This document shows positions 5,510-50,324 of a stretch of DNA of 64,000 nucleotides, in pieces. The notes under the pieces were generated by a model. It worked only from the letters and a program-made list of their open reading frames with translations. It made no database searches and was not told the DNA's origin. Position numbers and translations under genes: made by a program. This stretch comes from Eledone cirrhosa (lineage: Eukaryota): NCBI GenBank assembly GCA_964016885.1, contig OZ024764.1, positions 5,022,001 to 5,086,000 on the forward strand. The letters are read 5' to 3'. Each line of letters starts with the position of its first letter. Position 1 is the stretch's first letter.

Positions 5510-5539
5510 GAACACCACTAATTTCTCCGAAAAATTTCA
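5510..5539 (+). CDS. Putative symmetric micro-exon 1 (class A, 30 nt, phase 2-2; NTTNFSEKF)
   Basis: tttaac-tatatttttctcattacAG | gaacaccactaatttctccgaaaaatttca | GTAAGT. Length is 3n, phase 0 has a stop, and the flanks match the other class A copies while the exon differs. Confidence 0.75.
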
Positions 5540-15418: not shown

Positions 15419-15460
15419 GACTGTTCCACTGCAGAGTTCCGCTAGAGGAAACAGTGACGA
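15419..15460 (+). CDS. Putative symmetric micro-exon 2 (class B, 42 nt, phase 2-2; TVPLQSSARGNSD)
   Basis: tttaac-tatattttttgtaatcacAG | gactgttcc...agtgacga | GTAAGT. It has 11 substitutions versus exon 5, 10 of them at codon positions 1/2 in phase 2. Confidence 0.75.
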
Positions 15461-15814: not shown

Positions 15815-16070
15815 CCACGTTGGCTATTATGACACTCTCTCCAACATAGAGAGCTATGTTGGCGATTATGACTCTCTCTCTCCCTCTCTATGTTGGCTAT
15901 TATGACGCTCTCTCTCTCTCTATGTTGGCTATTATGACTCTCTCTCTCTCTCTATGTTGGCTATTATGACTCTCTCTCTCTCTATGTTGGCTATAATGAC
16001 TCTCTCTCTCTCTCTATGTTGGCTATAATGACTCTCTCTCTATTTATGTTGGCTATTATGTCTCTCTCTG
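15815..16070 (+). repeat. ~30-bp minisatellite TATGTTGGCTATTATGA(CT)n
   Basis: Tandem units with a variable (CT)n tract. Paralogues with different unit counts lie at about 29290-29705, 37445-37790, 49648-50005 and 63040-63398. Confidence 0.95.
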
Positions 16071-19195: not shown

Positions 19196-21329
19196 CTGGT
19201 TTACTCGGTGAGTTAAAACTCACTTGTGACTGTAGTGTTTTAGAAGTGTCTCAATCTTTCATGCATCACTAAATTTTTTAACTATTTCCCCTGAAACTGC
19301 CTTATTTTTGGGGGTCATCTTATCAATCGAATAGCGTCCTAAATCTAAATTATACTTCAGAATTTTAGGGGCCGACTTATGTACCGGATAGACTTGTACA
19401 CCGGCATATATGGTATATATATATATATGCATGGAGGCACATGGCTTAGTGGTTAGAGCATTGGTCATGCAATCGAAAGGTTGTGAGTTCAATTCTCAGA
19501 CCGGGTGATGTGTTGGTTCCTTGAGCAAGACACTTTATTTCACATTGCTCCAGTTTACTCAGCTGTAGAAATGAGATGATAGGGACTGGGGTCCCTATCA
19601 TTCCACTGCAAAGTGGTCGTGGAGGTGCCACGGCAAAAAAAGCACCCAGCACTCACTGTAAATGAGGTTGGTGACAGGAAGGGAATACAGCTGTAGAAAT
19701 CAAGCCAGAATCAGTTCCCGTCCCGCCCTTGCAAGCAGGGAAAAGTGGACGTAAAATGAAATGATGAAAGAGAGATAGAGAGAAAGAGAGGGAGTGAGAG
19801 AGATACATTAAAACAATAACAGAAGGTCTGACTGGAGAATTTACTTTAGAATTCCTTCACGGAAATGTCTTATTTATCTGTAACACAAACTTCAAAAAAC
19901 AAGACAACCACTTAATAATCGATAGATCAAGTGAGCCCTCCAGCTAGATAGATTTCCTTGTTACCAGAAGATAGAGTGACTGTTATAAACACAAAGTCCT
20001 TCCCTAGTGAAGAATGCACCTCCCAACATACCTTAGAATACAACCTGGAAGAAAAGAGTATAGATCAAAATCAAAAGGTCTTAAAGTCAATTTGGTAAAG
20101 ACTAAAGTTCTAGTAAGTAGAAAGGAAAACTGGGCCCAGATCTCTTCAGGTAAACTGTCCTGCTCAGTGGGCAGAAAAGGAGTAGGTAGAAATTCCATCC
20201 TATGTCCCATATAGAAATGATGGGTAGACAAAAGATGTTGTGGGATCTCAGGAAGGCTAACAAAGAACGTAGCTTCTACATGTGGCCAGTGAACAGGGGC
20301 AGGAAATATCAAGAGCTCTCGAGTTACAATCTCCTTCAAATGCCCAGAAGTCTCTGCAGAGGTGGTAGATAGTTTCTGTTACCTAGGTGACTAAATCAGC
20401 AGTGGAGGAGGGTGGTCCAAAAACTCAGTAACAAGAGTGAGATTAGATTGGAGAAAGTGCAGGGATCTACTACTACTGCTAACTACAAAACATTTTTCCA
20501 TCAAAATGAAGGGCAGACTGTATGATGCAGGTATACAAACAACAATGTTGCACAGCAGCGAGACCTGGGCACTGTGTGTAGAAGATCTGTAAAGATTGGA
20601 AAGAAATGAAGCCTCCATGCTTCAATGGATGTGCCATAGTAATATATGCAAATGGCAAAACATAGGTTACCATTGGGTAGGTTACTGTAGGGTAGGGTAC
20701 CATAGGGTGGGTTACCATAGCGTAGGTTACTGAATGGTAGGTTACATTTTGTTAGGTTACTGTAGGGTAGGTTACCATAGGGTAGGTTACCATAGGGTGG
20801 GTTACCATAGGGTAGGTTACTGTAGGGTAGGTTACCATAGGGTAGTTATGTAGGGTAGGTTACTGTAGGGTAGGTTACCATAGAGTAGGATACTGTAGGG
20901 TAGATTACCATAGGGTAGTTATGTAGGGTAGGTTACCATAGTGTAGGTTACTGTAGGGTAGGTTACCATAGAGTAGGATACTGTAGGGTAGGTTACCATA
21001 GGTTAGGTCACTGTAGGGTAGGTTACCATAGGGTAGGTTATTATAGGGTAGGTTACCATAGGTTAGGTTACTTTAGGGTTGGTTGCCATAGGGTATGTTA
21101 CCATAGGGTAGGTTACTATAAGGTAGGTTACCATACCATAGGTTAGGTTACCATATGTTTGTTAAGGTTAGGCTAGGCTGGTTTACTCGGTGAGTTAAAA
21201 CTCACTTGCGACTGTAGTGTTTTAGAAGAAGTGTCTTAATCTTTAGTGCGCCACTAAATTTTTTAACTATTTCCCCTGAAACTGCCTTATTTTTTGGGTG
21301 TCGTCTTATGAATCGAATAGTGTCGTATA

Positions 21330-22260
21330 GGACTATCTGGCATGTTTTCTATGGCTGGATGCCCTTCCTAACACCAACCACGTTTACAGTGTGGGGACTG
21401 GGAGGTTTTTACCATGTTAACTACACGGCCAATTTACAGCGTGGACTGTGTGTTTTATTGTCATAACACCTACACAACCTCATTTATTTAGGACTGGATG
21501 TTGTGTGACCAACATAATTTTACAGAGATGGGGGTGGGAGTAGTGGGGTGGGGGCGTATATTTGGTTAAGAGGTGCCTACTGACTGTAGGTTTCGCTTTG
21601 TACTTAGGCAAGGGTGGTCTTCTGTATTACTGCGTAGCGCCAAAGATCTCGGTTCAGTGACATTGTCTTGGAGAGGTGTAAGTGTGTGAGATCGGAATTT
21701 ATCAATTCGTCCCAGGGTTTTCTGGGTCTGCCCACTCCGTGGCTACCATTTATTTTGATCGCCCTGCACTTTTTTATACAGCTGTCGTCTTTCTTGCGCA
21801 TCACGTGACCATACCAACGTAGTCTTCTCTCGAGTAAACAACATCTGATCCCTCTTATTCCTAATTTCTCACTTAGTTCATTTATGCTTTGCCGTTCACG
21901 TATATTACTATTACACATCCAGCGGAGCATGCAAACTTCATTCCTCTCCAGTCTGCGTATATCCTCTGCACACAATGCCCAAGTCTCACTGCCATGTAAC
22001 ATTGTTGTTCGTATGCAGGCATCATACAGCCTGCCTTTCATTTTTAGAGAGAACCCTTTAGCGGCCAATCGTACAATGAAAAGAGCGTCTGTGATACTTT
22101 TACCTGACACAAACCCAAACTGCATTTCATCTAGATCAATTCTCTCTCTGATTAGTTGCGCTATTACTTTTTCTGTGACCCTCATGAACTGGTCAATTAA
22201 TTTAATGCCTCTATAGTTTCCCCTATCTAGGGCATCTCCTTTACCCTTGTAGCAGTTAAT
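21330..22260 (-). mobile_element. Internally deleted RTE LINE, antisense (duplicate of 4160-5095)
   Basis: ORF 21604-22317 is nearly identical to 4437-5150. Confidence 0.9.
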
Positions 22261-22676
22261 GATGATGATATATATATAAAAGAAATAGGATTTCGCTTCA
22301 AGCATATCTTTATACAATATGTATAAATATTTTGTATCTCCAAAGAAATACGGTTTTAGGAAGCCTTAGCTCTGCAAACCCTGGGGGGCTAACGTCCTCT
22401 GGTGATGTCCAGCAGAAGCAAAGGGGACAACCGTCTATGCATTTCAGGCTTAACTGACCATCGTCTGGACAGTCCCTCCCACTGCTTGCGACTGCTGGCC
22501 AGTTAAGCGTGAAATGCATAGACGGTTGTCCCCCTTGCTTCTGCTGGACATCACCAGAGGCCTTGAAACCCTAAGTCCCTTTTGCTCTGTGTATGAACAG
22601 AAATAAATAATGTAATATATATATATGTATGTGTGTGTATCTATTTATATATTTAACTATTTTTTTCTCATTACAG

Positions 22677-22709
22677 CACCACAACTTTTACTCCTCTCAA
22701 GAATATTAT
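22677..22709 (+). CDS. Putative symmetric micro-exon 3 (class A, 33 nt, phase 2-2; TTTFTPLKNI)
   Basis: ttttttctcattacAG | caccacaacttttactcctctcaagaatattat | GTAAGT. Length is 3n and the flanks are conserved class A. Confidence 0.75.
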
Positions 22710-23762
22710 GTAAGTGTTACCTTAACAAACTGTCTAACCATTGTTTAATCTGCTCCTCCCTCTACCTCTCCCTTTATACACACACACACATATATACCCC
22801 TATATATATATATGTATACACACACACACACAAATATATACACATATATACATATATATATACACACATATATATACATATATACAAGCGAGACACGGCC
22901 TGCTGACCAATCTCGTCTTAAGTGGGACAAAACCGTCCAACCCATGCTAGCATGGAAGATGGACTTTAAATGATGATGATATATATACACTGACACATAT
23001 ATATACATATATATATACACATATATATACGCATATATTTATATATATATATGAGTTCAAGTCCGCCGAGGTTAACTTTGCCTTTCATCTTTACGAGGTC
23101 GATAAAATAAAGTACCAGTGGTGTACTGGGGTAATCGCTGGCCTTGTGCCAAAAGTAGAAACTATATTTATATATATATAACCAAAGATTAATATGGTTC
23201 GTTGATTACTCAACGAATACAGTTTTACAATAGATTAGAAGCACTCAACAGTGAAATTTTCCTGGAGTTTTTAATATTATTCAAAATATTAACAAATGAA
23301 AAATATTCTCATAATCAAAATATATACTTTATTATATATATTTCAAAGGTATATGACATACCTCTACGGTCTTGATTATTCAATTCCACTATTGGCAGTG
23401 ACTATATATTTATAGGCAAAATGAATAATGAAAGAGTTGCAAGCCGTTAAAACATATCTTTATAAAGCTCTTACATATGTTATATATATATATATCATCA
23501 TCATCATTATATGTCCGCTTTTCCCTGCTTGCAAGGGTAGGGCTCTCGCCACCACCGGCCATGTTTTTTGTGGTCTTCCTCTACTGCGTCTTCCTTCTAC
23601 TGGGATTTTTTAGCACCTCTTTACCCAGCGGTCATCCTCGATGCACATCACTTGTCTATACCATCTCAGTCTTCTCTCCTGCACATCACAACTTATCCCC
23701 AGTTTCTCTCTCAACTCATCTATGCTCTTGTCGTTCACGCACATTGACACACACACATACAC

Positions 23763-23793
<31 letters not shown>

Positions 23794-24125
23794 TATAAGG
23801 GATAACAAAATATCGTTATAGGTAATCCAGGTAGAGGTTGTGAATACTCTGTATTGTGATTAGTCTTAGTCTACGGCATTGTTTGACTCAACAAGAGGTT
23901 TCCGTAGGTGGCAAGTATTTGAGTTCTCTTGAATTCCTATGTAAGTTTATCTTGGAGTAATAATATTGAAAGCGTGAAGAATAACATGGTCAACAGTACA
24001 AAAAAAGGTTTTTATTTACAGTATTAACAATTGTTTCACTGATTAAGTTGTCTAAAAATTGCTGAACACTTGAAGCTGTGCCACTCAATTTTAAATATGT
24101 TGTTAGCTTAACCAGATCATCAGAA

Positions 24126-24157
<32 letters not shown>

Positions 24158-24511
24158 CTACAAATTATGTCCATAGAACCATTTGATAAGATATATACAC
24201 CATTTCCTCTCCCAATTAGCATAATCAACCACACAAAAAATCAATTAGACCAGGCTATAAGATTAAAAGGCACCTATGATAAAATAGTAGATAAATAAAC
24301 GACAGCATTTCAATAGCATGTGGAAATCAATTAAATATATCGTCAACCATACACAATTAGGTATAAAATTAAAGTTAGAAGAAAAAATGCATATACACAT
24401 ACCAGGATTACGTTTCTACGCTTTAGGGTTTCGTTCGCATTTGGAAATATACTATCAAGGATAAATTCGATATAAATTCTATAAATTTATCAAGGATAAA
24501 TTTATAGTATA

Positions 24512-25332
24512 CTAGCAGTAAAGCCCGGCGTTGCTCGGGGTCGCTCAGTAGCTGTGTTAAAGTTACAATGTTAAGTTTCTTTTTTGGCTTAAAAACTGTA
24601 GTGTCTACTGTGCAGACTTGCATGTGGTGTTTTTGATTAATATTCCCTCAACCAACAATATGCCTTATGAAGTAAAGAAAACATAACGATAACCCAAATG
24701 TTATAACAAAAGAGGATGCTGGGGATAAAAACTGCACTGGTTATTTATTAACAAAGATCGAAAATGTAAACACTGCAACGTAGAGAAAAACATTAGCGTA
24801 ACCAAATTATCAGTTATGTCTGTCTGCACGCCTATATCACCTCTCTGCACGACTGTCTGTCTGCACGCCTGAAATATTTGCTTGTTTTACGTAGTCTTTA
24901 AATAGACTTGTTTTCAAGTAAAAATATTGTTTTAAAATGCTTTTAAATGGAAATGAAACAAAACGGAAGCTTAGTGTTCGAACTGATGAATTTTGCAGGT
25001 CAATATTTTGCTGGCTCGACAACTGTTCGTGTATTGTATTGTGTTAATGTCATTTTAAACGCTGAGAAAGCCAGCGTAATTTTTTACGTAAGACGCTCAA
25101 TGTAAACAGAACAAAGGGAAATAACTGATAACTTACGCTCAAAAATCGATACATTATATTCGATTTCGTCACATAGGGTGGGTCAATTTGAAATTTTTTT
25201 TTTTCCCATGTCTTCGCTAGGGCTCAATGTACAAGTATAGCAATTTCGGTGCAATTCCGTGAGAGATTCTAAGAGGAGATGTGTGCCAAAAATCGATAGA
25301 CAGACAGACAACCACAGTTTTATATATATAGA
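24512..25332 (-). mobile_element. Non-autonomous Helitron
   Basis: The minus strand reads A|TCTATATATATAAAAC...(GTCT)n...CCCGAGCAACGCCGGG-ctttactg-CTAG|T, giving a 5' TC, a 3' GC-rich hairpin plus CTAG, and an A-T target without TSD. Confidence 0.8.
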
Positions 25333-25439
25333 TTGCTCTGATTATTTAATTTATTAATTCATCATTGAGCCACATCGTGAATGGTTGCCAAAAACATATA
25401 TATCTATGACTTTGTCTAGTTTGTGTATATGTAAATCTT

Positions 25440-25533
25440 TATATTGATTGTTCCTTATGTAGCACAGCCTTTCAGATTCCATCTTTGCGCACAAGTCTAC
25501 AGCAAGCTGGTTGAAGAGTACTCTTGCACGGTG
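25440..25533 (-). mobile_element. Fragment of Helitron Rep/helicase coding sequence
   Basis: Translation HRARVLFNQLAVDLCAKMESERLCYIRNNQ resembles the Helitron RepHel motif (LFQQ..VD.YAK.E..RL.YIR.NQ). Confidence 0.65.
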
Positions 25534-25534
25534 G

Positions 25535-27015
25535 AACAGCAACGTAGTAAGTAAGGCAATCAAAGATATGAAGATGGGGAAGGCAACCGGTCCATCGGGT
25601 ATAGCTGCCGAGATGCTGAAGGCATCTGGGTCTGTAGGTCACACTATAACCACACGTATTGTTAACCAGGTAATACTAGAAGGTGTCATACCAAAAGATT
25701 GGTGCAGTAGCATCATTGTCAACTGCTACAAAAGTAAAGGTGATGCACTAGATAGAGGAAACTATAGAGGTATAAAGCTGATGGACCAGGTCATGAAAGT
25801 AACAGAAAGAGTTATAGCACAGTTGAAGAGGCACCACTGATGCCCTCTTCCTTGTCAGGCAGTTACAGGAAAAGTACCTAGCTAAAAGTAAGCCACTCTA
25901 CCTGGCATTTGTCGACCTTGAGAAAGCCTTTGACAGAGTTCCACGTGCTGTAATCTGGTGGGCTCTTAGAAAACTAGGAGTAGATGAATAGCTTGTGAAA
26001 GTGGTACAAGCCATGTATAGGGGAGCAGTCAGCAAAGTTAGGATTAGCAATGAGTATAGTGAGGAATTTAGCGTACAGGTTGGGGTCCATCAGGGCTCTG
26101 TTCTTAGCCCCCTCCTGTTCATCATTGTCCTGCAGGCAATAACGGGTGACTTTAAGACCGGATGCCCATGGGAACTCCTGTATGCTGATGACATCGCACT
26201 TATAGCTGAATCTATGGTAGAACTAGAGAAGAAATTCCAAACTTGGAAGCAGGGACTAGAAAGAAAGGGTCTCAAAGTCAACATGACAAAGACTAAGGTC
26301 CTTGTAAGTAGACGAGAAAACAGAACCCAGATCCCCTCAGGGAAATGTCCTTGCTCAGTATGTAGGAAAGGTGTAGGTAGGAACTCCATTCTCTGCCCCA
26401 AATGCAAACAATGAGTACACAAGAGATGTAGCGGGATCTCAGGAAGCTTAATTAAGAATGTAGGCTTCACATGCAGCAGCTGTGCTTGGACAGCAAGCAG
26501 CAAACAGCCACAGGAAACAAGTACCACCAATCTCTGGGAGGGCTCTGGAGAAACAGTAGACAGCTTCTGCTACCTAGGTGACCGAATTAGCAGCGGAGGT
26601 GGGTGTTCAGAAAGTACAATAAATAGGGTAAGAATGGGATGGAAGAAGTTTAGGGAACTACTACCACTGCTAGCTGCAAAAGGCTTCTCCCTCAAAATGA
26701 AAGGCAGACTGTATGATGCGTGTATCCGAACAGCGATGTTGCATGATAGTGAGACCTGGGCGCTGAAGGTGGAAGACTTACGTAGATTAGAGAGAAACGA
26801 AGCCTGCATGATCTGATGGATGGGTAACAGTAATATACGCGAACGACAAAGCATAAATGAATTGAGAGACTGAGCATAAGAGGAATCAAATGCTGTGTGC
26901 AGGAGAGGCGGTTGCGCTGGTATGGACATGTGATGCGTATGAAGGATGACAGCTGCATAAAAAGGTGCAGAGCACTAGAAGTCGATGGAAACCGCGGAGT
27001 GGGGAGACCCAAGAT
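25535..27015 (+). mobile_element. RTE LINE, least-deleted copy (RT domain to C-terminus), pseudogenised
   Basis: KMGKATGPSGIAAEMLK...KGDALDRGNYRGIKL, AFVDLEKAFDRV, GVHQGSVLSPLLF, LLYADD and a CSVC/CPKC region. It contains stops and a deletion. Confidence 0.92.
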
Positions 27016-28856: not shown

Positions 28857-28898
28857 GACTGATACAAAGGAGAGTACCGCTCTAGAAAAGAATGAGGA
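28857..28898 (+). CDS. Putative symmetric micro-exon 4 (class B, 42 nt, phase 2-2; TDTKESTALEKNE)
   Basis: gtaatcacAG | gactgatacaaagg...aatgagga | GTAAGT. Stops occur in phase 0 (TGA) and phase 1 (TAG), so only phase 2 is open. Confidence 0.75.
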
Positions 28899-29272: not shown

Positions 29273-30019
29273 GACTCCTCTTATAAACCACGTTGGCTAT
29301 TATGACTCTCTCTTTCCCTCTCTATGTTGGCTATTATGACTCTCTCTCTCTCCCTCCCTCCCTCTCTATGTTGGCTATTATGACTCTCTCTCTCTCTCTA
29401 TGTTGGCTATAATGACTCTCTCTCTCTATGTTGGCTATAATGACTCTCTCTCTCTATCTATGTTGGCTATTATGTCTCTCTCTCTCTATCTATGTTGGCT
29501 ATTATGTCTCTCTCTCTCTATCTATGTTGGCTAATATGACTCTCTCTCTCTCTCTATGTTGGCTATTATGACTCTATCTCTCTCTATGTTGGCTATTATG
29601 TCTCTCTCTCTCTATCTATGTTGGCTATTATGACTCTCTCTCTCTATTTATGTTGGCTATTATGTCTCTCTCTCTCTATCTATGTTGGCTATTATGTCTC
29701 TCTCTGTTCAAGCTTTATGAAGTTAGTTGAACATCTTCAAAGTCCTCCCATATTCGCCTTGTCTAATATGCGTTCTTGTACCTGATTATTTCCCCCAAAT
29801 CTCCTGGGATGTTATAAACCATGATGGCTACCTATCTCACAATTTCTCTCCTGCCCACCCCCTCACACCACCATAGTCTATTCGACCAATCAAACCTCAG
29901 AAACATGTCCCCACCCATTACCAACCCCAACAAACTCTGCCATTACTACTACTTCTACTTTTCTTCTAGCCCTTACCAGCCCCAACAAACCCTGACATTA
30001 TTACTACTATTGTCCTAGC

Positions 30020-31445
30020 TATGGGCTGAGGATAAATGAGGCTACCCCAAATTAATAAATGAATATGAATCCGCGAGTTACCAAGCACCCATGCAAAGCT
30101 TTAATTCAGAGACAGGAAGCATACACACCCCACTGCAAAAATTCACCCTTTCCCACGAGTGGTGGCAAATGCCCAAAACTCCGAGTTGGAACCATCAATG
30201 TAAGCACAATGAAAGGAAGAGCAGGAGAAATTGTAGAGATGCTAGAGCGAAAGAAAATTGATGTATGCTGTGTGCAAGAGACTAGATGGAGAGCAGAGTC
30301 TGCTGGAGTCCTTGCAGGCAGAAGTCAGTGCTACCAATTTGTCTGGGTAGCAAATGACAACAGGATGGGAGGTGTAGCTATCCTATTAGCTGACAAATGG
30401 GTAGATAAGGTAATCTCAGTGAACAGGGTGAATGCAAGAATAATGAAACTTGGACAAGTCCTGAATAAAACAATTGCCACAATAATATCAGCTTACGCAC
30501 CCCAATTGGGGTTGCCAGCTGACTATAGCGGGGAATTTAGTTTAGAGGTCGGTGTCCACCAGGGCTCTGTTCTTAGCCCACTCCTGTTCGTTGAAGTATT
30601 GCAAGCAATAACGGAGGTGATTATGACCGGTGCCCATGGGAACTCCTATATGCGGATCATCTCACACTTATAGCCGAATCTATGGTGGAACTATACTTGC
30701 TCAGTATGTAGAAAAGGAGTAGGCTGGCTGCAAAAGGCTTTCTCCTCAAAATGAAAAGCAGACTGTATGATGTGGGTATACGAATAGCAATGTTACATAG
30801 TAGTGAAACCTTGGCGCCGTCTGTGGAAGACTTGCATAGATTAGAAAGAAACGAAGCCTGCATGCTCCGATGGATGTGTAATAGTAATATACGCGAACGG
30901 CAAAGCATAAATGAATTGAGAGAGTGACTGAGCATAAGAGGAATGAAATGCTGTGTGCAGGAGAGGAGGTTGCATTGGACATGTGATGCGTATGAAGGAT
31001 GACAGCTGTATAAAAAGGTATAGAGCAGTAGAAGTCGATGGAAGCCGTAGAGTGGGGAGACCCAAGAAGAGCTGGGATGAGGTGATAAAAGCCGACCTTA
31101 CCCAGTTGCACCTCTCAAAGGCGATGACACAGGACCGTCACCTCTGGCATCAAGCAGTAATACAGAAGACCTGACTCCCCAGGGCTACAAGCGGAAGCTG
31201 AAGCGTATGCTCCCACCCTCTCCGACTGTACAGTGGACATATAGGCGCCACAGACAAAAAGCACCCAGGACTCACTGTAAATGAGGTTGGTGTTAGGAAG
31301 GGCATCCAGCTGTAGGAATCAAGCCAGAATCAGTTCCTGTATGAGCAAGACAAGGTCAGCTGAACAGACACTGCCCACAACAGGACAACCCGTCTAACCC
31401 ATGCTAGCGTGGAAGAATGGACGTAAAACAGTGATGAAGATGATA
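30020..31445 (+). mobile_element. Internally deleted RTE LINE (EN + RT fragment + 3' end)
   Basis: ORF 30059-30673; paralogue of 10200-11590. Confidence 0.9.
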
Positions 31446-37047: not shown

Positions 37048-37089
37048 GACTGATACAAAGGAGAGTACCGCTCCAGAAAAGAATGACGA
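37048..37089 (+). CDS. Putative symmetric micro-exon 5 (class B, 42 nt, phase 2-2; TDTKESTAPEKND)
   Basis: gtaatcacAG | ... | GTAAGT. The two differences from exon 4 are both non-synonymous (L/P, E/D). Confidence 0.75.
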
Positions 37090-37189: not shown

Positions 37190-38104
37190 AGGTGTATTAT
37201 TGGTTGTGTAAAACGGTCCAATAAATTTTTGTTAGCTTTTGTATATCTCCAATTCCATTCAAGGGAACAGCTAGATCATGTAAAACGGAGTATTTGTATC
37301 AAAATGAAAATCCAAAGGCAAGGTAAAATTTCCAATCATTTTAATCTCGCCGTGATTAAAATGATTGCAAATCTTACCTTGCCTTTGGATTTTCATTTTG
37401 ATATATATATATATATGTATATATATGACTCTGTCTCTTATAAACCACGTTGGCTATTATGACACTCTCTCCAACATAGAGAGCTATGTTGGCTAATATG
37501 ACTATCTCTCTCTATGTTGGCTAATATGACTCTCTCTCTCCCTCTCTATGTTGGCTATTATGACTCTCTCTCTCTCCCACTCTATGTTGGCTATTATGAC
37601 GCTCTCTCTCTCTCTATGTTGGCTATTATGACTCTCTCTCTCTCTATGTTGGCTATTATGTCTCTCTCTCTCTCTATGTTGGCTATAATGACTCTCCCAC
37701 TCTATGTTGGCTATAATGACTCTCTCTCTCTCTATGTTGGCTATAATGACTCTCTCTCTCTCTATGTTGGCTATTATGTCTCTCTCTGTTCAAGCTTTAT
37801 GAAGTTAGTTGAACATCTTCAAAGTCCTCCCATATTCGCCTTGTCTAATATGCGTTCTTGTACCTGATTATTCCCCCCAAATCTCCTGGGATGTTATAAA
37901 CCATGATGGCTACCTATCTCACAATTTCTCTCCTGCCCACCCCCTCATACCACCATAGTCTATTCGACCAATCAAACCTCAGAAACATGTCCCTCACCCA
38001 TTACCAACCCCAACAAACTCTGCCATTATTACTACTTCTACTTTTCTTCTAGCCCTTACCAGCCCCAACAAACCCTGACATTATTACTACTATTGTCCTT
38101 CTAG

Positions 38105-40928: not shown

Positions 40929-43079
40929 CTGGTTTACTCGGTGAGTTAAAACTCACTTGTGACTGTAGTGTTTTAGAAGTGTCTCAATCTTTCATGCACC
41001 ACTAAATTTTTTAACTATTTCCCCTGAAACTGCCTTATTTTTGGGGGTCATCTTATCAATCGAATAGCGTCCTAAATCTAAATTATACTTCAGAATTTTA
41101 GGGGCCGACTTATGTACCGGATAGACTTGTACACCGGCATATATGGTATATATATATATATGCATGGAGGCACATGGCTTAGTGGTTAGAGCATTGGTCA
41201 TGCAATCGAAAGGTTGTGAGTTCAATTCTCAGACCGGGTGATGTGTTGGTTCCTTGAGCAAGACACTTTATTTCACATTGCTCCAGTTTACTCAGCTGTA
41301 GAAATGAGATGATAGGGACTGGGGTCCCTATCATTCCACTGCAAAGTGGTCGTGGAGGTGCCACGGCAAAAAAAGCACCCAGCACTCACTGTAAATGAGG
41401 TTGGTGACAGGAAGGGAATACAGCTGTAGAAATCAAGCCAGAATCAGTTCCCGTCCCGCCCTTGCAAGCAGGGAAAAGTGGACGTAAAATGAAATGATGA
41501 AAGAGAGATAGAGAGAAAGAGAGGGAGTGAGAGAGATACATTAAAACAATAACAGAAGGTCTGACTGGAGAATTTACTTTAGAATTCCTTCACGGAAATG
41601 TCTTATTTATCTGTAACACAAACTTCAAAAAACAAGACAACCACTTAATAATCGATAGATCAAGTGAGCCCTCCAGCTAGATAGATTTCCTTGTTACCAG
41701 AAGATAGAGTGACTGTTATAAACACAAAGTCCTTCCCTAGTGAAGAATGCACCTCCCAACATACCTTAGAATACAACCTGGAAGAAAAGAGTATAGATCA
41801 AAATCAAAAGGTCTTAAAGTCAATTTGGTAAAGACTAAAGTTCTAGTAAGTAGAAAGGAAAACTGGGCCCAGATCTCTTCAGGTAAACTGTCCTGCTCAG
41901 TGTGCAGAAAAGGAGTAGGTAGAAATTCCATCCTATGTCCCATATAGAAATGATGGGTACACAAAAGATGTTGTGGGATCTCAGGAAGGCTAACAAAGAA
42001 CGTAGCTTCTACATGTGGCCAGTGAACAGGGGCAGGAAATATCAAGATCTCTCGAGTTACAATCTCCTTCAAATGCCCAGAAGTCTCTGCAGAGGTGGTA
42101 GATAGTTTCTGTTACCTAGGTGACTAAATCAGCAGTGGAGTAGGGTGGTCCAAAAACTCAGTAACAAGAGTGAGATTAGATTGGAGAAAGTGCAGGGATC
42201 TACTACTACTGCTAACTACAAAACATTTTTCCATCAAAATGAAGGGCAGACTGTATGATGCAGGTATACAAACAACAATGTTGCACAGCAGCGAGACCTG
42301 GGCACTGTGTGTAGAAGATCTGTAAAGATTGGAAAGAAATGAAGCCTCCATGCTTCAATGGATGTGCCATAGTAATATATGCAAATGGCAAAACATAGGT
42401 TACCATTGGGTAGGTTACTGTAGGGTAGGGTACCATAGGGTGGGTTACCATAGGGTAGGTTACTGTATGGTAGGTTACATTTCGTTAGGTTACTGGAGGG
42501 TAGGTTACCATAGGGTAGGTTACCATAGGGTGGGTTACCATAGGGTAGGTTACTGTAGGGTAGGTTACCATAGGGTAGTTATGTAGGGTAGGTTACCATA
42601 GTGTAGGTTACTGTAGGGTAGGTTACCATAGAGTAGGATACTGTAGGGTAGGTTACCATAGGGTAGTTATGTAGGGTAGGTTACCATAGTGTAGGTTACT
42701 GTAGGGTAGGTTACCATAGAGTAGGATACTGTAGGGTAGGTTACCATAGGTTAGGTCACTGTAGGGTAGGTTACCATAGGGTAGGTTATTATAGGGTAGG
42801 TTACCATAGGTTAGGTTACTATAGGGTTGGTTGCCATAGGGTATGTTACCATAGGGTAGGTTACTATAAGGTAGGTTACCATACCATAGGTTAGGTTACC
42901 ATATGTTTGTTAAGGTTAGGCTAGGCTGGTTTACTCGGTGAGTTAAAACTCACTTGCGACTGTAGTGTTTTAGAAGAAGTGTCTTAATCTTTAGTGCGCC
43001 ACTAAATTTTTTAACTATTTCCCCTGAAACTGCCTTATTTTTTGGGTGTCGTCTTATGAATCGAATAGTGTCGTATAGG

Positions 43080-44010
43080 ACTATCTGGCATGTTTTCTAT
43101 GGCTGGATGCCCTTCCTAACACCAACCACGTTTACAGTGTGGGGACTGGGAGGTTTTTACCATGTTAACTACACGGCCAATTTACAGCGTGGACTGTGTG
43201 TTTTATTGTCATGACACCTACACAACCTCATTTATTTAGGACTGGATGTTGTGTGACCAACATAATTTTACAGAGATGGGGGTGGGAGTAGTGGGGTGGG
43301 GGCGTATATTTGGTTAAGAGGTGCCTACTGACTGTAGGTTTCGCTTTGTACTTAGGCAAGGGTGGTCTTCTGTATTACTGCGTAGCGCCAAAGATCTCGG
43401 TCCAGTGACATTGTCTTGGAGAGGTGTAAGTGTGTGAGATCGGAATTTATCAATTCGTCCCAGGGTTTTCTGGGTCTGCCTACTCCGTGGCTACCATCTA
43501 TTTTGATCGCCCTGCACTTTTTTATACAGCTGTCGTCTTTCATGCGCATCACGTGACCATACCAACGTAGTCTTCTCTCGAGTAAACAACATCTGATCCC
43601 TCTTATTCCTAATTTCTCACTTAGTTCATTTATGCTTTGCCGTTCACGTATATTACTATTACACATCCAGCGGAGCATGCAAACTTCATTCCTCTCCAGT
43701 CTGCGTATATCCTCTGCACACAATGCCCAAGTCTCACTGCCATGTAACATTGTTGTTCGTATGCAGGCATCATACAGCCTGCCTTTCATTTTTAGAGAGA
43801 ACCCTTTAGCGGCCAATCGTACAATGAAAAGAGCGTCTGTGATACTTTTACCTGACACAAACCCAAACTGCATTTCATCTAGATCAATTCTCTCTCTGAT
43901 TAGTTGCGCTATTACTTTTTCTGTGACCCTCATGAACTGGTCAATTAATTTAATGCCTCTATAGTTTCCCCTATCTAGGGCATCTCCTTTACCCTTGTAG
44001 CAGTTAATGA
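43080..44010 (-). mobile_element. Internally deleted RTE LINE, antisense
   Basis: ORF 43352-44065; duplicate of 4437-5150. Confidence 0.9.
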
Positions 44011-44423
44011 TGATGATATATATATAAAAGAAATAGGATTTCGCTTCAAGCATATCTTTATACAATATGTATAAATATTTTGTATCTCCAAAGAAATACG
44101 GTTTTAGGAAGCCTTAGCTCTGCAAACCCTGGGGGCTAACGTCCTCTGGTGATGTCCAGCAGAAGCAAAGGGGACAACCGTCCATCCATTTCAGGCTTAA
44201 CTGGCCATCGTCAGGACAGTCCCTCCCACTGCTTGCGACTGCTGGCCAGTTAAGCATGAAATGCATAGACGGTTGTCCCCCTTGCTTCTGCTGGACATTA
44301 CCAGAGGCCTTGAAACCCTAAGTCCCTTTTGTTCTGTGTATGAACAGAAATAAATAATGTAATATATATATATGTATGTGTGTGTATCTATTTATATATT
44401 TAACTATATGTTTCTCATTACAG

Positions 44424-44501
44424 GAACACCACTAATTTCTCCGAAAAATTTATTACTTCTCTCCAATGCAACCTTCCCTCCAATGATTACAAGAAATTTA
44501 T
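44424..44501 (+). CDS. Putative symmetric exon 6 (class A, expanded, 78 nt, phase 2-2; NTTNFSEKFITSLQCNLPSNDYKKF)
   Basis: tttctcattacAG | 78 nt | GTAAGT. The first 28 nt are identical to exon 1, the last 18 nt are identical to the end of exon 7, and the length is still 3n. Confidence 0.72.
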
Positions 44502-45358
44502 GTAAGTGTTACCTTAACATACTGTCTAACCATTGTTTAATCTGCTCCTCCCTCTACCTCTCCCTTTATACACACACACACATATATACCCCTATATATA
44601 TATGTATACACACACACACACAAATATATACACATATATACATATATATATACACACATATATATATAATCACATATATATATACATATATACAAGCGAG
44701 ACACGGCCTGCTGACCAATCTCGCCTTAAGTGGGACAAAACCGTCCAACCCATGCTAGCATGGAAGATGGACTTTAAATGATGATGATATATACACACTG
44801 ACACATATATATATACATATATATATACACATATATATACGCATATATTTATATATATATATGAGTTCAAGTCCGCCGAGGTTAACTTTGCCTTTCATCT
44901 TTACGAGGTCGATAAAATAAAGTACCAGTGGTGTACTGGGGTAATCGCTGGCCTTGTGCCAAAAGTATAAACTATATTTATATATATATATATATAACCA
45001 AAGATTAATATGGTTTGTTGATTACTTAATGAATACAGTTTTGCAATAGATTAGAAGCACTCAACAGTGAAAGTTTTCCTGGACTTTTTAATATTAACAA
45101 ATGAAAAATATTCTCATAATCAAAATATATACTTTATTATATACATTTCAAAGGTATATGACATACCTCTACGGTCTTGATTCTTCAATTCCAGTATTGC
45201 AGTCACTGCCAATACTGGAATTGAAGAATCAAGACCGTAGCGCTATGTCATAATCATATATTTTGTCTGATGAGGACGTACTGAAAAAACAACAATATAT
45301 ATAATATAGTATATATTTTGATTATGCGAATATTTTTCATTTGTTAACATTTTGAATA

Positions 45359-45408
<50 letters not shown>

Positions 45409-45474
45409 AGGTAAAATGAATAATGAAAGAGTTGCAAGCCTTTAAAACATATCTTTATAAAGCTCTTACATATG

Positions 45475-45520
<46 letters not shown>

Positions 45521-46316
45521 CATCATTATCATTTTATGTCCGCTTCTCCCTGCTTGCAAGGGTTGGGCTCTCACCACCACTGGCCATGTTTTTCGTGGTC
45601 TTCCTTTTACTGGGATTTTTTAGCACCTCTTTACCCAGCGGTCATCCTCGATGCGCATCACTTGTCCATACCATCTCAGTCTTCTCTCCTGCACACCACA
45701 ACTCATCCCCAGTTTCTCTCTCAACTCATCTATGGTCTTGTTGTTCACGCACATTGACACACACACACATATATATATTAATTCTATTGACTGATTAATA
45801 GCTCTTGTTAATTTTAAAACCATTCTGTTGAGAGCTTAATTCGTTTTGTGATATTTTGCAATAACACACATACTGAATTCATCCGCCAAAACTAAGGGTT
45901 GCCCCCCCCCCCCCTGTGAAGCCCCACGTGGGTTTTGATAACGGTCAGTCCTTGGCTTGGCACTGAACTAAAAGCCTGTTGCAAAAGTGACTTCCTTGTT
46001 CGATCATCATACAAAAAGCTTAACATTATTTGTCTAAGTAGACAGTACTTGATTTAGGAGTTGCAGAAACCCAATACTGGATATTACCAACCTTCCAGGG
46101 GTCCGGGTATAATTTTCCATCATATTTTATTTGTTTTACTCGAATTACTTGGTCGTGTCTATGGCTGTGCGGATAATTGTTTAACCATCGTCTCAGTGTG
46201 TTTGGCCTTTTAACTTATGTTGTTGCTCTAGTTCACTAGCTTCTATGGAGCGCCTGCCACACATCTCGGAAGTTGTTTTTCGTTAATTTCCAATAGCAGA
46301 AATGCAATTCTCGCTA

Positions 46317-46350
<34 letters not shown>

Positions 46351-47194
46351 GTATAAGGGATAACAAAATATCGTTATAGGTAATCCAGGTAGAAGTTGTG
46401 AATACTCTGTATTGTGGTTAGTCTTAGTCTACGGCGTTGTTTGACTCAACAAGAGGTTTCCGTAGGTGGCAAGTATTTGAGTTCTCTTGAATTTCTATGT
46501 AAGTTTATCTTGGAGTAATAATATTGAAAGCGTGAAGAATAACATGGTCAACAGTACAAAAGAAGGTTTTTATTTACAGTATTAACAATTGTTTCACTGA
46601 TTAAGTTGTCTAAAAATCGCTGAAAACTTAAAGCTGTGCCACTCAATCTACTATATATATTGGAAGTGGTCGGACGTTGTATATTTAAGTAAATAAGTAG
46701 GTGTAGTCGGATAAACGTCGAAACGGCTTGGTAGAATGCAGCGAAAATTTACACAGTTATGCAGAATTGTAGCAGTTAATGATGATGATATATATGTAAA
46801 AGAAATAGGATTTCGCTTCAAGCATATCTTTATACAATATGTATAAATATTTTGTATCTCCAAAGAAATACGGTTTTAGGAAGCCTTAGCTCTGCAAACC
46901 CTGGGGAGCTAACGTCCTCTGGTGATGTCCAGCAGAAGCAAGGGGGACAACCGTCTATGCATTTCAGGCTTAACTGACCATCGTCTGGACAGTCCCTCCC
47001 ACTGCTTGCGACTGCTGGCCAGTTAAGCGTGAAATGCATAGACGGTTGTCCCCCTTGCTTCTGCTGGACATCACCAGAGGCCTTGAAACCCTAAGTCCCT
47101 TTTGCTCTGTGTATGAACAGAAATAAATAATGTAATATATATATATGTATGTGTGTATCTATTTATATATTTAACTATATTTTTCTCATTACAG

Positions 47195-47224
47195 TACATA
47201 TATTATTGATTACAAGAAATTTAT
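47195..47224 (+). CDS. Putative symmetric micro-exon 7 (class A, 30 nt, phase 2-2; TYIIDYKKF)
   Basis: tttttctcattacAG | tacatatattattgattacaagaaatttat | GTAAGT. Phase 0 has a TGA stop. Confidence 0.75.
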
Positions 47225-48579
47225 GTAAGTGTTACCTTAACAAACTGTCTAACCATTGTTTAATCTGCTCCTCCCTCTACCTCTCCCTTTATACACACAC
47301 ACACATATATACCCCTATATATATATGTATACACACACACACACAAATATATACACATATATACATATATATATACACACATATATATACATATATACAA
47401 GCGAGACACGGCCTGCTGACCAATCTCGTCTTAAGTGGGACAAAACCGTCCAACCCATGCTAGCATGGAAGATGGACTTTAAATGATGATGATATATATA
47501 CACTGACACATATATATACATATATACAAATATATATACGCATATATCTATATATATATATATGAGTTCAAGTCCGCCGAGGTTAACTTTGCCTTTCATC
47601 TTTACGAGGTCGATAAAATAAAGTACCAGTGGTGCACTGGGGTAATCGCTGGCCTTCTGCCAAAAGTAGAAACTATAATTATATATATATAACCAAAGAT
47701 TAATATGGTTCGTTGATTACTCAACGAATACAGTTTTACAATAGATTAGAAGCACTCAACAGTGAAAGTTTTCCTGAACTTTTTAATATTAACAAATGAA
47801 AAATATTCTCATAATCAAAATATATACTTTATTATATATATTTCAAAGGTATATGACATACCTCTACGGTCTTGATTATTCAATTCCAGTATTGGCAGTG
47901 ACTATATATTTATAGGCAAAATGAATAATGAAAGAGTTGCAAGCCGTTAAAACATATCTTTATAAAGCTCTTACATATGTTATATATATATATATCATCA
48001 TCATCAGCAGCGAGACCTGGGCACTGTGTGTAGAAGATCTGTAAAGATTGGAAAGAAATGAGCCTCCATGCTTCAATGGATGTGTCATAGTAATATATGC
48101 AAATGGCAAAACATAAATGTACTGTGAGAGGATTTAGGCATAAGAGGGATTAGATGCAGTGTGCAGGAGTGGGATTGTTTTGGTATAGACATGTGATGTG
48201 TATGAAGGGTGACAGCTGTATAAAAAGGTGCCAAACGCACAAAGTTGACAGAGGCCGTGGAGTGGGCAGGTCTAGGAAGACTTGGGATGAGGTAAGGAAA
48301 GCTGATTTTGTACAATTACACCTAGCTAAGGCAATGACACAGGATGGTGACCTCTGGCGCTATGCACAATTATAGAGGACTACATCCACAATCCACCAGA
48401 CATTTTCCCTACCAACACCCCACACAAGTTCCCAAACCTCACCATAAAGTGGTCCCGCTGCAGCCATGACAAACGTGTCCAGTCCACACTGTACAGTGGT
48501 CTTGTAGGTGTCTTGCCAAAAATCAATATTGGGCCTTAAAACCTTGAGTCCCTTTTGTTCTGTGTATGAACATAAATAA

Positions 48580-49112
48580 TTGTTTCTACTTTTGGCACAA
48601 GGCCAGCAATTATCCAGTGCATTACTGGTACTTTATTTTATCGACCCCGTAAGGATGAAAGGCAAAGTTAACCTCGGCGGGATTTGAACTCAGATCATAC
48701 AGGGAGGTAACTATGCTTCAAAGCATGGCGTCCGACTCTCTACCGATACTGCCAATCCACCGCCTGAACATAAATAAATAATTGGTTCTACTTTAGGCAC
48801 AAGGCCAGCAATTACCTAGTACATTACTGGTACTTTATTTTATCGACTCCGTAAGGATGAAAGGCAAAGTCAACCTCGGAGGGATTTGAACTCAGATCGG
48901 AAAGGGACGTAACTGAATAAATAATTGTTTCTACTATTGGCACAAGGCCAGAAAATTACCCAGTACATTACTGGTACTTTATTTTATCGACCCCGTAAGG
49001 ATGAAAGGCAAAGTTAACCTCGGCGGGATTTGAACTCAGAATGGCAAGGGCCGTAACTCTATGCGTCAAAGCATGGCGTCCGAACCTCTACCGATACTGC
49101 CAATCCACCGCC
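48580..49112 (-). mobile_element. Three tandem antisense Meta-like SINEs
   Basis: Three diverged copies starting at about 48580, 48782 and 48924, each separated by aataaataat. Confidence 0.75.
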
Positions 49113-49194: not shown

Positions 49195-49236
49195 GGCTGA
49201 TACAGAGGAGGGTACCGCTCCAGAAAATAATGACGA
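49195..49236 (+). CDS. Putative symmetric micro-exon 8 (class B, 42 nt, phase 2-2; ADTEEGTAPENND)
   Basis: gtaatcacAG | ggctgatacagagg...aatgacga | GTAAGT. The upstream TTTAAC motif has changed to TTTAAG. Confidence 0.7.
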
Positions 49237-49629: not shown

Positions 49630-50324
49630 CTGTCTCTTATAAACCACGTTGGCTATTATGACACTCTCTCCAACATAGAGAGCTATGTTGGCTAATATGA
49701 CTATCTCTCTCTATGTTGGCTATTATGACTCTCTCTCTCTCTCTCTATCCCTCCCTCTCTATGTTGGCTAATATGACTCTCTCTCTCCCTCTCTATGTTG
49801 GCTATTATGACTCTCTCTCTCTCTATGTTGGCTATTATGACTCTCTCTCTCTCTATGTTGGCTATTATGACTCTCTCTCTCTCTATGTTGGCTATTATGT
49901 CTCTCTCTCTCTATCTATGTTGGCTATTATGACTCTCTCTCTCTATTTATGTTGGCTATTATGTCTCTCTCTCTCTATCTATGTTGGCTATTATGTCTCT
50001 CTCTGTTCAAGCTTTATGAAGTTAGTTGAACATCTTCAAAGTCCTCCCATATTCGCCTTGTCTAATATGCGTTCTTGTACCTGATTATTTCCCCCAAATC
50101 TCCTGGGATGTTATAAACCATGATGGCTACCTATCTCACAATTTCTCTCCTGCCCACCCCCTCACACCACCATAGTCTATTCGACCAATCAAACCTCAGC
50201 AACATGTCCCCCACCCATTACCAACCCCAACAAACTCTGCCATTACTACTACTTCTACTTTTCTTCTAGCCCTTACCAGCCCCAACAAACCCTGACATTA
50301 TTACTACTATTGTCCTTCTAGCTA

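What the first reader, a model, noticed from the sequence alone, without database searches (positions are those of the whole stretch)
44424..44501. 78-nt composite exon that looks like fused micro-exons
Seen: between normal class A flanks lies a 30-nt exon-1-like unit (gaacaccactaatttctccgaaaaatttat), an 18-nt piece, and a 30-nt unit ending like exon 7 (...tgattacaagaaatttat). It includes an internal near-repeat cttctctccaatg/cttccctccaatg, and the frame is preserved. Inference: two class A exons joined head-to-tail without an intron are what recombination with a reverse-transcribed spliced mRNA would produce (RTE RT could act in trans). That would also explain why change is confined to exons. 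Intra-exon tandem duplication followed by divergence is the simpler alternative.
Basis: partly seen in the sequence, partly recalled or inferred. Interest (0 to 1): 0.7.

Follow-up and report, generated by a model that had tools for sequence, protein, structure and literature searches.

The report
Chimeric exon in hypervariable micro-exon array
One tiny exon in a tandem array of fast-evolving micro-exons has grown into a longer chimera of two sister exons plus a short copied filler, most likely through messy DNA break repair rather than the proposed copying-back of spliced RNA, and the array itself is the more interesting object.

Summary
The 78-nt, in-frame, AG/GT-bounded exon at 44424-44501 (A3) is real, but its anatomy is 30+30+18, not 30+18+30. 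Nucleotides 1-28 are identical to exon A1 (5510) and 61-78 to the end of exon A4 (47195). Nucleotides 31-60 match no exon in the window and carry a 13-nt repeat of period 17.

Only the 30|31 boundary could be a splice junction, and none of the 10 other exons starts there. Both flanks are of the A1/A5 cassette type, so this is not intron loss between A3- and A4-type cassettes. Cassette introns are mosaic, so DNA-level exchange is active. Exon changes in the closest pairs are 0 synonymous, 23 non-synonymous, so selection can explain why change stays in exons.

Best reading (0.55): aborted conversion from a sister cassette, closed by templated end joining, with the frame kept by selection. Intra-exon duplication 0.2; cDNA fusion 0.13.

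The context matters more: 11 symmetric phase-2 micro-exons, class A pairs only 47-73% identical between flanks 97-100% identical. This resembles schistosome micro-exon genes and Hessian-fly SSSGPs. No protein homologue was found; transcripts and DNA outside the window were unavailable.

The parts
44424..44501 (+). Exon A3, 78 nt, phase 2/2, 25 whole codons (NTTNFSEKFITSLQCNLPSNDYKKF); no internal GT
44424..44453 (+). Head: complete A1-type exon (first 28 nt identical to A1, then the usual class A ending AT)
44454..44483 (+). Orphan 30 nt with no match to any other exon in the window
44456..44468 (+). First copy of the 13-nt internal repeat
   Evidence: offset 17, 12 of 13
44473..44485 (+). Second copy of the 13-nt repeat; overlaps the A4-identical block by 2 nt
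44484..44501 (+). Tail: 18 nt identical to the 3' end of exon A4 (47207-47224)
44446..44453 (+). 8-nt direct repeat AAATTTAT, left copy (right copy 44494-44501); the class A 3' end, flanking the 48-nt excess
   Evidence: offset 48
44404..44423 (+). Class A acceptor; A3 alone has G in place of T at -14 (44410)
44502..44520 (+). Donor GTAAGT and first diagnostic intron site (+19, 44520), which groups A3 with A1 and A5, not with A4
5510..5539 (+). Exon A1, 30 nt; relative of the head
47195..47224 (+). Exon A4, 30 nt; next exon downstream (intron 2693 nt); relative of the tail
22677..22709 (+). Exon A2, 33 nt
58000..58032 (+). Exon A5, 33 nt; sits in the duplicate of the A3 position
60813..60842 (+). 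Exon A6, 30 nt; duplicate of the A4 position
15419..15460 (+). Exon B1, 42 nt
28857..28898 (+). Exon B2, 42 nt
37048..37089 (+). Exon B3, 42 nt; exon upstream of A3 (intron 7334 nt)
49195..49236 (+). Exon B4, 42 nt
62624..62665 (+). Exon B5, 42 nt; donor reads GA instead of GT, probably not spliced here
30960..30979 (-). Antisense stretch of a non-LTR retroelement remnant matching A3 nt 39-58 at 18 of 20 (second copy 11106-11125; five more at 17 of 20); marginal candidate source of filler

Best explanation
A3 is a DNA-level chimera made inside a tandem array of near-identical exon cassettes. A break at or near the 3' end of an A1-type exon left that exon whole on one side. The other end invaded a sister cassette through the roughly 98% identical downstream intron and copied part of that cassette's exon, whose 3' end is shared with A4. 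It was released before reaching the acceptor. The ends were then joined by synthesis-dependent microhomology-mediated end joining, which left a locally templated repeat (13 nt, period 17) and an 8-nt direct repeat around the 48-nt excess. The product survived because +48 nt keeps phase 2 without a stop, in a gene where new amino-acid sequence is favoured. It works as one longer cassette exon (26 residues instead of 10-11) in a Thr/Asn/Lys/Glu-rich low-complexity protein. SHOWN: anatomy, flank type, intron mosaicism, non-synonymous bias. INFERRED: the break, the repair pathway, the direction of transfer between A3 and A4, splicing, and the protein's nature.
For: Head 28 nt = A1 and tail 18 nt = A4 (P about 2e-6). 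The nearest informative intron sites separating cassette types (-92, +19, +223) put A3 with A1 and A5, so the A4-like tract is under about 110 nt and ends before intron +19. Intron sites among the six class A cassettes are mosaic: 45 of 136 site pairs incompatible, at least 6 exchange events, after dropping 11 of 28 columns at microsatellite or indel edges (88 of 378 before). Spliced cDNA cannot move intron sequence, so DNA-level exchange is active here. A direct repeat next to the junction (1 of 2000 shuffles) is the signature described for loop-out SD-MMEJ (PMC2943611, passages). Diversifying selection: 0 of 23 single-base codon differences in six close pairs are synonymous, 22% expected, p=0.003; class B tree edges 0.5 synonymous versus 16.5 non-synonymous, p=0.018. 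The A3-A4 and A5-A6 introns differ at 14 of 1658 sites, while A4 and A6 differ at 10 of 30.
Against: The head ends within 2 nt of an exon end, which a DNA break would do only about one time in ten (my estimate) and cDNA does by construction. No donor for nt 31-60 exists in the window, so the copied exon is hypothetical beyond its last 18 nt. The 17-nt repeat is out of frame alone, so the event needs at least two junctions. The SD-MMEJ criterion is met by chance in 18-54% of simple junctions (PMC2943611). Over all 15 class A pairs, pathway-averaged pS (0.38) is about equal to pN (0.41) and far above flank divergence, so selection on amino acids may not be the whole story for class A. The 23 changes are not fully independent; one A6 change is counted twice. 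There is no rise in intron divergence next to exons (0 of 300 comparisons at 21-40 nt on each side), which conversion with selected exons would tend to leave.
Confidence: 0.55

Rival explanations
1. Intra-exon tandem duplication and slippage, then divergence. A single class A exon was duplicated in place between the 8-nt repeats and gained a 17-nt slip. The copies diverged under selection. A1 arose later by collapse between the repeats, and A4 took its 3' end from A3 by short conversion.
For: 8-nt direct repeat at offset 48 and 13-nt repeat at offset 17. Exons change fast. 33-nt exons show that in-frame insertions occur. The direction of A3/A4 and A3/A1 transfer cannot be read from the window.
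Against: The tail's last 30 nt match A1 at only 15 of 30, while a contiguous 18 nt equal A4. It needs at least three separate events. A1 and A3 flanks are not sisters (upstream 8 of 384 differences, like other pairs).
Confidence: 0.2
2. cDNA-mediated fusion. A spliced mRNA with an A1-like exon followed by a 48-nt class A exon was reverse-transcribed in trans by a LINE enzyme and copied into an A1-type cassette, using the exon and the shared 8-nt end as homology.
For: The head is a complete exon ending AT; 30|31 is the only in-frame internal boundary preceded by AT, and the next three bases equal the first three of A4. The foreign tract is compatible with being purely exonic. Potentially active RTE LINEs are reported in octopus (PMC9115989, passages). 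A>G is the commonest polarised change in class B, 4 of 13, which would fit edited RNA but is too few to count.
Against: No exon of the 10 others starts at nt 31 or 49, and none is 48 or 18 nt. The downstream flank is not A4-type. Homology arms would be only 30 and 8 nt. The 48-nt partner would itself need a templated insertion. No intact reverse transcriptase lies in the window: the longest stop-free frame is 315 aa against 1109 aa for the octopus RTE-2_OV protein.
Confidence: 0.13
3. Filler captured from a retroelement. Nt 39-58 were copied from the antisense strand of the non-LTR remnant in these introns (or from its cDNA) by template switching at 6-7 nt microhomologies. This can combine with the best explanation.
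For: 18 of 20 match, 13 exact, at 30960-30979 and 11106-11125; reached by 3 of 300 shuffles.
Against: It was 1 of 9 queries tested this way, so about 0.09 after correction; the other 8 gave nothing above chance. The nearest 18-of-20 copy is 13 kb away. The local 17-nt repeat explains part of the same bases.
Confidence: 0.08
4. Assembly or consensus artefact: two haplotypes or cassettes were merged at this exon.
For: The region is highly repetitive; raw reads were not available.
Against: The orphan 30 nt exist nowhere else in the window and the length is a multiple of 3. A3 has private flank variants on both sides. Absence of a stop in nt 31-60 is weak evidence (4113 of 5000 shuffles are also stop-free).
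Confidence: 0.04

Closest known systems
Hessian fly SSSGP genes (PMC2955719; passages and section 7 read)
   Same: Tandem copies with conserved non-coding DNA, introns included, and highly diverged coding DNA; explained by positive selection plus concerted homogenisation. SSSGP-2 has about 950 coding nt split by 35 introns, several rearranged or deleted.
   Different: There whole small genes are repeated. Here the repeated unit is one micro-exon with 2-10 kb of satellite- and retroelement-filled intron, apparently inside one gene. No sequence relationship was tested or is expected.
Schistosome micro-exon genes, MEG (PMC4350168 and PMC10526429; passages)
   Same: Many very short symmetric exons in multiples of three (6-81 bp) between long introns, high dN/dS, enrichment for transposable elements, exon duplication linked to an element.
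   Different: MEGs are described as restricted to flatworms, with mostly 15-bp exons and a signal peptide. Here exons are 30-78 nt, fall in two homologous cassette classes, and the introns are near-identical copies.
Synthesis-dependent microhomology-mediated end joining (PMC2943611; passages)
   Same: Net insertion forming a direct repeat with sequence within about 20 bp of the junction.
   Different: The A3 insertion is longer (48 nt) and includes 18 nt shared with a paralogous exon 2.7 kb away, so a conversion step is also needed. The pathway was not tested.
cDNA-mediated intron loss (PMC3020277; passages)
   Same: Exon sequence abutting a complete exon end without an intron.
   Different: That route is precise and deletes the intron between the fused exons. 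Here there are 30 orphan nt and the downstream flank belongs to the head's cassette type.
Dscam tandem exon arrays expanded by staggered homologous recombination (search listing only; mechanism recalled)
   Same: Tandem duplicated cassette exons; recombination between copies.
   Different: Dscam exons are mutually exclusive Ig-domain pieces of conserved length with diverged introns (recalled). Here introns are conserved and exons are micro-exons of variable length.

Membership tests
cDNA-mediated intron loss / exon fusion | First part is a complete exon ending at its donor boundary | tested here: met
   nt 1-30: 28 identical to A1 plus the class A ending
cDNA-mediated intron loss / exon fusion | Second part starts at the first base of an existing exon, with no filler | tested here: not met
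   0 of 10 other exons match from nt 31 above chance; 1 of 12 from nt 49 against A4; window only
cDNA-mediated intron loss / exon fusion | Downstream flank is that of the second exon (intron deleted) | tested here: not met
   Sites +19, +223, +643, +682 group A3 with A1/A5, not A4
cDNA-mediated intron loss / exon fusion | The same junction exists in spliced transcripts; germline reverse transcriptase available | not testable with these tools
   No transcripts; only broken RT remnants in the window
SD-MMEJ / templated-insertion junction | Insertion forms a direct or inverted repeat of 4 bp or more within about 20 bp | tested here: met
   13-nt repeat at offset 17, 1 of 2000 shuffles; criterion
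SD-MMEJ / templated-insertion junction | Known pre-repair sequence and dependence on polymerase theta | not testable with these tools
   Ancestral allele not available
Inter-paralogue gene conversion | Short tract shared between cassettes whose flanks belong to different types | tested here: met
   18-nt A3/A4 identity bounded by sites -92 and +19; 45 of 136 intron site pairs incompatible
Schistosome-type micro-exon gene (MEG) | Many short symmetric exons, multiples of three, between long introns | tested here: met
   11 of 11 exons 30-78 nt, phase 2/2; introns 1781-9879 nt; 121 of 121 ordered junctions give sense codons
Schistosome-type micro-exon gene (MEG) | Elevated dN/dS | tested here: met
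   0 of 23 synonymous in six close pairs; inconclusive for distant class A pairs
Schistosome-type micro-exon gene (MEG) | Signal peptide, secretion, alternative splicing shown by transcripts | not testable with these tools
   First and last exons lie outside the window; no transcripts
Schistosome-type micro-exon gene (MEG) | Flatworm gene with MEG sequence motifs | tested here: inconclusive
   No homologue found; organism not fixed by tools; MEG sequences were not compared directly. It works like a MEG but is not filed as one.

The most novel reading that the evidence does not exclude
The array is diversified by an exon-confined, RNA-templated process. Spliced (possibly A-to-I edited) transcripts are reverse-transcribed by LINE enzyme in trans and pasted back over individual micro-exons, and A3 is a slip in which two spliced exons went into one cassette. 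That would be a eukaryotic functional analogue of a diversity-generating retroelement acting on a micro-exon gene. It would explain the knife-edge boundary of divergence at the splice sites, the missing divergence halo, and the high synonymous distance among class A exons.
Probability: 0.1. Interest if true: 0.9.

Novelty: new variant of a known kind. Interest (0 to 1): 0.42.

Why it matters
As a single event the composite exon is modest: it shows how a micro-exon array gains longer, chimeric exons. Its setting is the stronger result. An apparently undescribed gene is built from duplicated micro-exon cassettes whose kilobase introns are about 95-99% identical while the 30-nt exons differ at a third to a half of their bases, nearly always changing the amino acid in close pairs. 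That points to a protein in an arms race (recognition, immunity, fertilisation or secretion; inferred). It also offers a clean system for the open question raised for SSSGP genes of how non-coding DNA is homogenised right up to a hypervariable coding segment. Composite exons like A3 are the diagnostic events: their junction positions across a whole array separate DNA-templated from RNA-templated exchange.

Tried and rejected
Protein homologues: none useful. A profile from class B exon peptides gave 0 of 307 candidates at E<=10. The 33-residue A3 frame gave 1 hit among 1.84 billion representatives (E 6.7e-4), an unnamed singleton made of tandem repeats whose score comes from 5 repeated stretches; rejected as chance. 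The exon read in its other open frame with flanks found no candidate. Pfam gave 0 families for the two exon frames. The Atlas gave no answer. The exon peptides are too short for the word-based search on their own, so these negatives are weak.

Rfam: 0 matches in 64 kb.

Other hypervariable segments: a sliding scan of paralogous alignments showed the exons plus microsatellite and old retroelement segments only. A generic splice scan with a strict pyrimidine threshold found 5 of the 11 exons (A1, A2, A4, A5, A6), missed A3 and all class B, and found nothing on the minus strand.

Resemblance of the class A 3' end to the reverse complement of the class B acceptor (15 of 17): not above shuffles for A4 (176 of 300). 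Inverted repeats in A3 plus or minus 30 nt: none of 8 nt, one of 7 nt. DGR-like A-to-N or editing-like A-to-G bias: 13 class B and 15 class A polarised changes, too few and mixed. Phase 0 and phase 1 readings rejected: 17 and 6 stops.

Literature: no paper held both 'octopus' and 'microexon' in a relevant sense (3 listed; passages of one read). 0 papers for the cephalopod/tandem exon/hypervariable query. None of the 15 listed of 2688 contained 'micro-exon'. These searches miss most subscription papers, and no supplements were read.

Unchecked: metagenome and viral contig collections, the rest of the genome, and transcripts. The bacterial, phage and plasmid collections were not searched because the locus is a spliced animal-type gene.

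Full report
Setting. The window is a tandem array of repeated units made of a 15-nt satellite, microsatellites and broken non-LTR retroelements. Pfam finds reverse transcriptase in 3 of 5 remnant frames tested and an endonuclease in 1. The longest stop-free frame in the window is 315 aa and is satellite-derived, so no intact element is present. The label RTE is recalled, not tested. The organism is not fixed by tools: the two named relatives among 120 listed for an RT fragment are from Octopus bimaculoides (63%) and Hydractinia (62%). My reading as an octopod rests on recall of a SINE-like repeat.

The exon array. Splice motifs define 11 segments on the + strand: six class A (30, 33, 78, 30, 33, 30 nt) and five class B (42 nt). 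All are multiples of three. Only phase 2 is stop-free in 11 of 11; read in order, the frames have 0 stops in 147 codons against 17 and 6, and 1 of 5000 shuffles does as well. All 121 ordered junctions give sense codons. Class A and B flanks are homologous. Among class A, the 80 nt on each side are 97-100% identical, while exon pairs other than A1/A3 are 14-22 of 30 identical. The A3-A4 intron and its duplicate A5-A6 differ at 14 of 1658 sites; A4 and A6 differ at 10 of 30. Splicing is inferred, not shown.

The observation. A3 (44424-44501) is as long as described and in frame. Its first 28 nt equal A1 and its last 18 equal A4, whereas no other class A pair shares more than 2 nt of prefix or 9 nt of suffix. 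Drawing A4's 18 letters from a profile of A1, A2, A5 and A6 has P about 2e-6. The internal repeat is 12 of 13 nt at offset 17 (9 of 2000 shuffles for the exon, 1 of 2000 for the tail), and an 8-nt repeat, the common class A end, brackets the 48-nt excess. The proposed 30+18+30 partition fails: nt 49-60 match the start of A4 at 1 of 12, and the boundary follows AA, an ending no exon has. The supported anatomy is a 30-nt A1-type head, 30 orphan nt, and an 18-nt A4-type tail.

Test of cDNA fusion. In favour: the head is a whole exon, 30|31 is the only in-frame boundary after AT, and the next three bases equal A4's first three. Against: anchored at nt 31, the best of 10 exons matches 10 of 30, below the shuffle mean of 11.3. 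cDNA-mediated loss is described as precise and as deleting the intron (PMC3020277, passages). A3's downstream kilobase is of the A1/A5 type (sites +19, +223, +643, +682, an 18-nt microsatellite insert and a segment of about 230 nt), while A4's is of the A2/A6 type. A4 still follows 2693 nt later. The A4-like tract therefore lies between -92 and +19. A cDNA route survives only as a short conversion with 30- and 8-nt arms from a 48-nt exon not seen here. The window holds only part of the array, so this is not excluded.

DNA-level exchange is active. Of 28 informative intron columns among the six class A cassettes, 88 of 378 pairs fail the four-gamete test. After dropping 11 columns at microsatellite or indel edges, 45 of 136 fail, with at least 6 exchange events. 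Recurrent mutation could add a few, but at 1-6% divergence not this many (inference). Spliced cDNA cannot carry intron sequence.

Why change stays in exons. In six close pairs (four class B tree edges, A4-A6, A2-A6; 6 of 25 within-class pairs), codons differing by one base are 0 synonymous and 23 non-synonymous, with 22% synonymous expected, p=0.003. Five multi-hit codons were set aside and one change is counted twice. Nei-Gojobori counts on the class B edges give 0.5 versus 16.5, p=0.018. This is diversifying selection, and it removes the need for cDNA as the reason. Two results cut the other way. Over all 15 class A pairs, pS 0.38 is close to pN 0.41, though inflated by multi-hit codons and uncertain alignment. 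And intron divergence does not rise towards the exons: 13 and 9 of 300 comparisons differ within 20 nt, and 0 of 300 on each side at 21-40 nt. These keep an exon-targeted process open.

Mechanism. I favour (0.55) a break near the end of an A1-type exon, one-sided copying of a sister exon primed from the near-identical downstream intron, release before the acceptor, and closure by templated end joining. Loop-out SD-MMEJ leaves direct repeats next to the junction (PMC2943611, passages), though its criterion is often met by chance. Copying that ran on into the acceptor would simply replace the exon, so only stops within the exon appear as composites (inference). Selection keeps products of 3n nt. 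The rivals are intra-exon duplication with later collapse and conversion (0.2), cDNA fusion (0.13), filler from the antisense retroelement remnant (18 of 20, 3 of 300 shuffles, 1 of 9 queries; 0.08) and assembly error (0.04).

Product. The 137 whole codons are rich in Thr (26), Asn (15), Lys (15), Glu (13), Ser (10) and Asp (10), which suggests a disordered, probably glycosylated extracellular stretch (inference). A3 adds 16 residues, including one of only two cysteines in the array. No homologue was found; these searches are weak for such short peptides.

Comparison. The array works like schistosome micro-exon genes (symmetric short exons, high dN/dS, transposon-rich; PMC4350168 and PMC10526429, passages). 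It also works like Hessian fly SSSGP genes (conserved introns, super-diversified coding DNA, intron deletions in the 35-intron SSSGP-2; PMC2955719, passages and section 7). It is not filed as a member of either. Octopus has potentially active RTE LINEs (PMC9115989, passages), which keeps a trans-acting enzyme possible. My searches found no description of such an array in cephalopods, within a library lacking most subscription papers.

Verdict. Observation partly confirmed; the fused-exon idea is right in part; the cDNA mechanism is not supported within the window. New variant of a known kind. Interest 0.42, carried mostly by the hypervariable array. The RNA-templated reading has probability about 0.1 and would merit 0.9.

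Noticed in passing
window 5510-62665: The whole 11-exon hypervariable array, with exon divergence stopping sharply at the splice sites and no halo in the introns; probably more interesting than the composite exon itself.
   Followed up: partly
window 47195-47224 versus 60813-60842: A4 and A6 sit in duplicate positions with introns 99% identical, yet five consecutive codons differ only at the second base; 7 of the 10 differences fall on a C in A6.
   Followed up: partly
window 62666-62667: B5 has GA instead of GT at the donor; its exon differs from B4 by one base. Probably a recently silenced cassette; its frame reads on 7 codons into the intron before a stop.
   Followed up: partly
window 44410: A3 alone has a G in the polypyrimidine tract at -14, which may weaken its inclusion.
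   Followed up: no
window 20768-23506: The A2 cassette has the long upstream region of A1/A3/A5 but the downstream flank of A4/A6, as expected from an unequal crossover collapsing an A-A pair.
   Followed up: partly
window 42884-48925 and 56457-62555: A 6-kb block carrying two class A exons is duplicated at 96%.
   Followed up: partly
window 655-56456: Thirteen arrays of a G-rich 15-nt satellite, all on the same strand, up to 160 copies; could form G-rich structures or break-prone sites that drive the array's turnover.
   Followed up: no
window 24103-26668: The only long segment without a copy in the window; it holds a less degraded retroelement remnant (best RT match, E 1e-15) and about 1.3 kb of unassigned sequence.
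   Followed up: partly
window 45174-45240: By eye, a near-perfect inverted repeat of about 30-nt arms in the intron of A1/A3/A5-type cassettes, inside the segment that A2/A4/A6 lack; not tested with a tool.
   Followed up: no
window 15854-16069, 29354-29705, 37484-37787, 49751-50004, 63139-63396: A 30-32-nt minisatellite with a CT run follows every class B exon.
   Followed up: no
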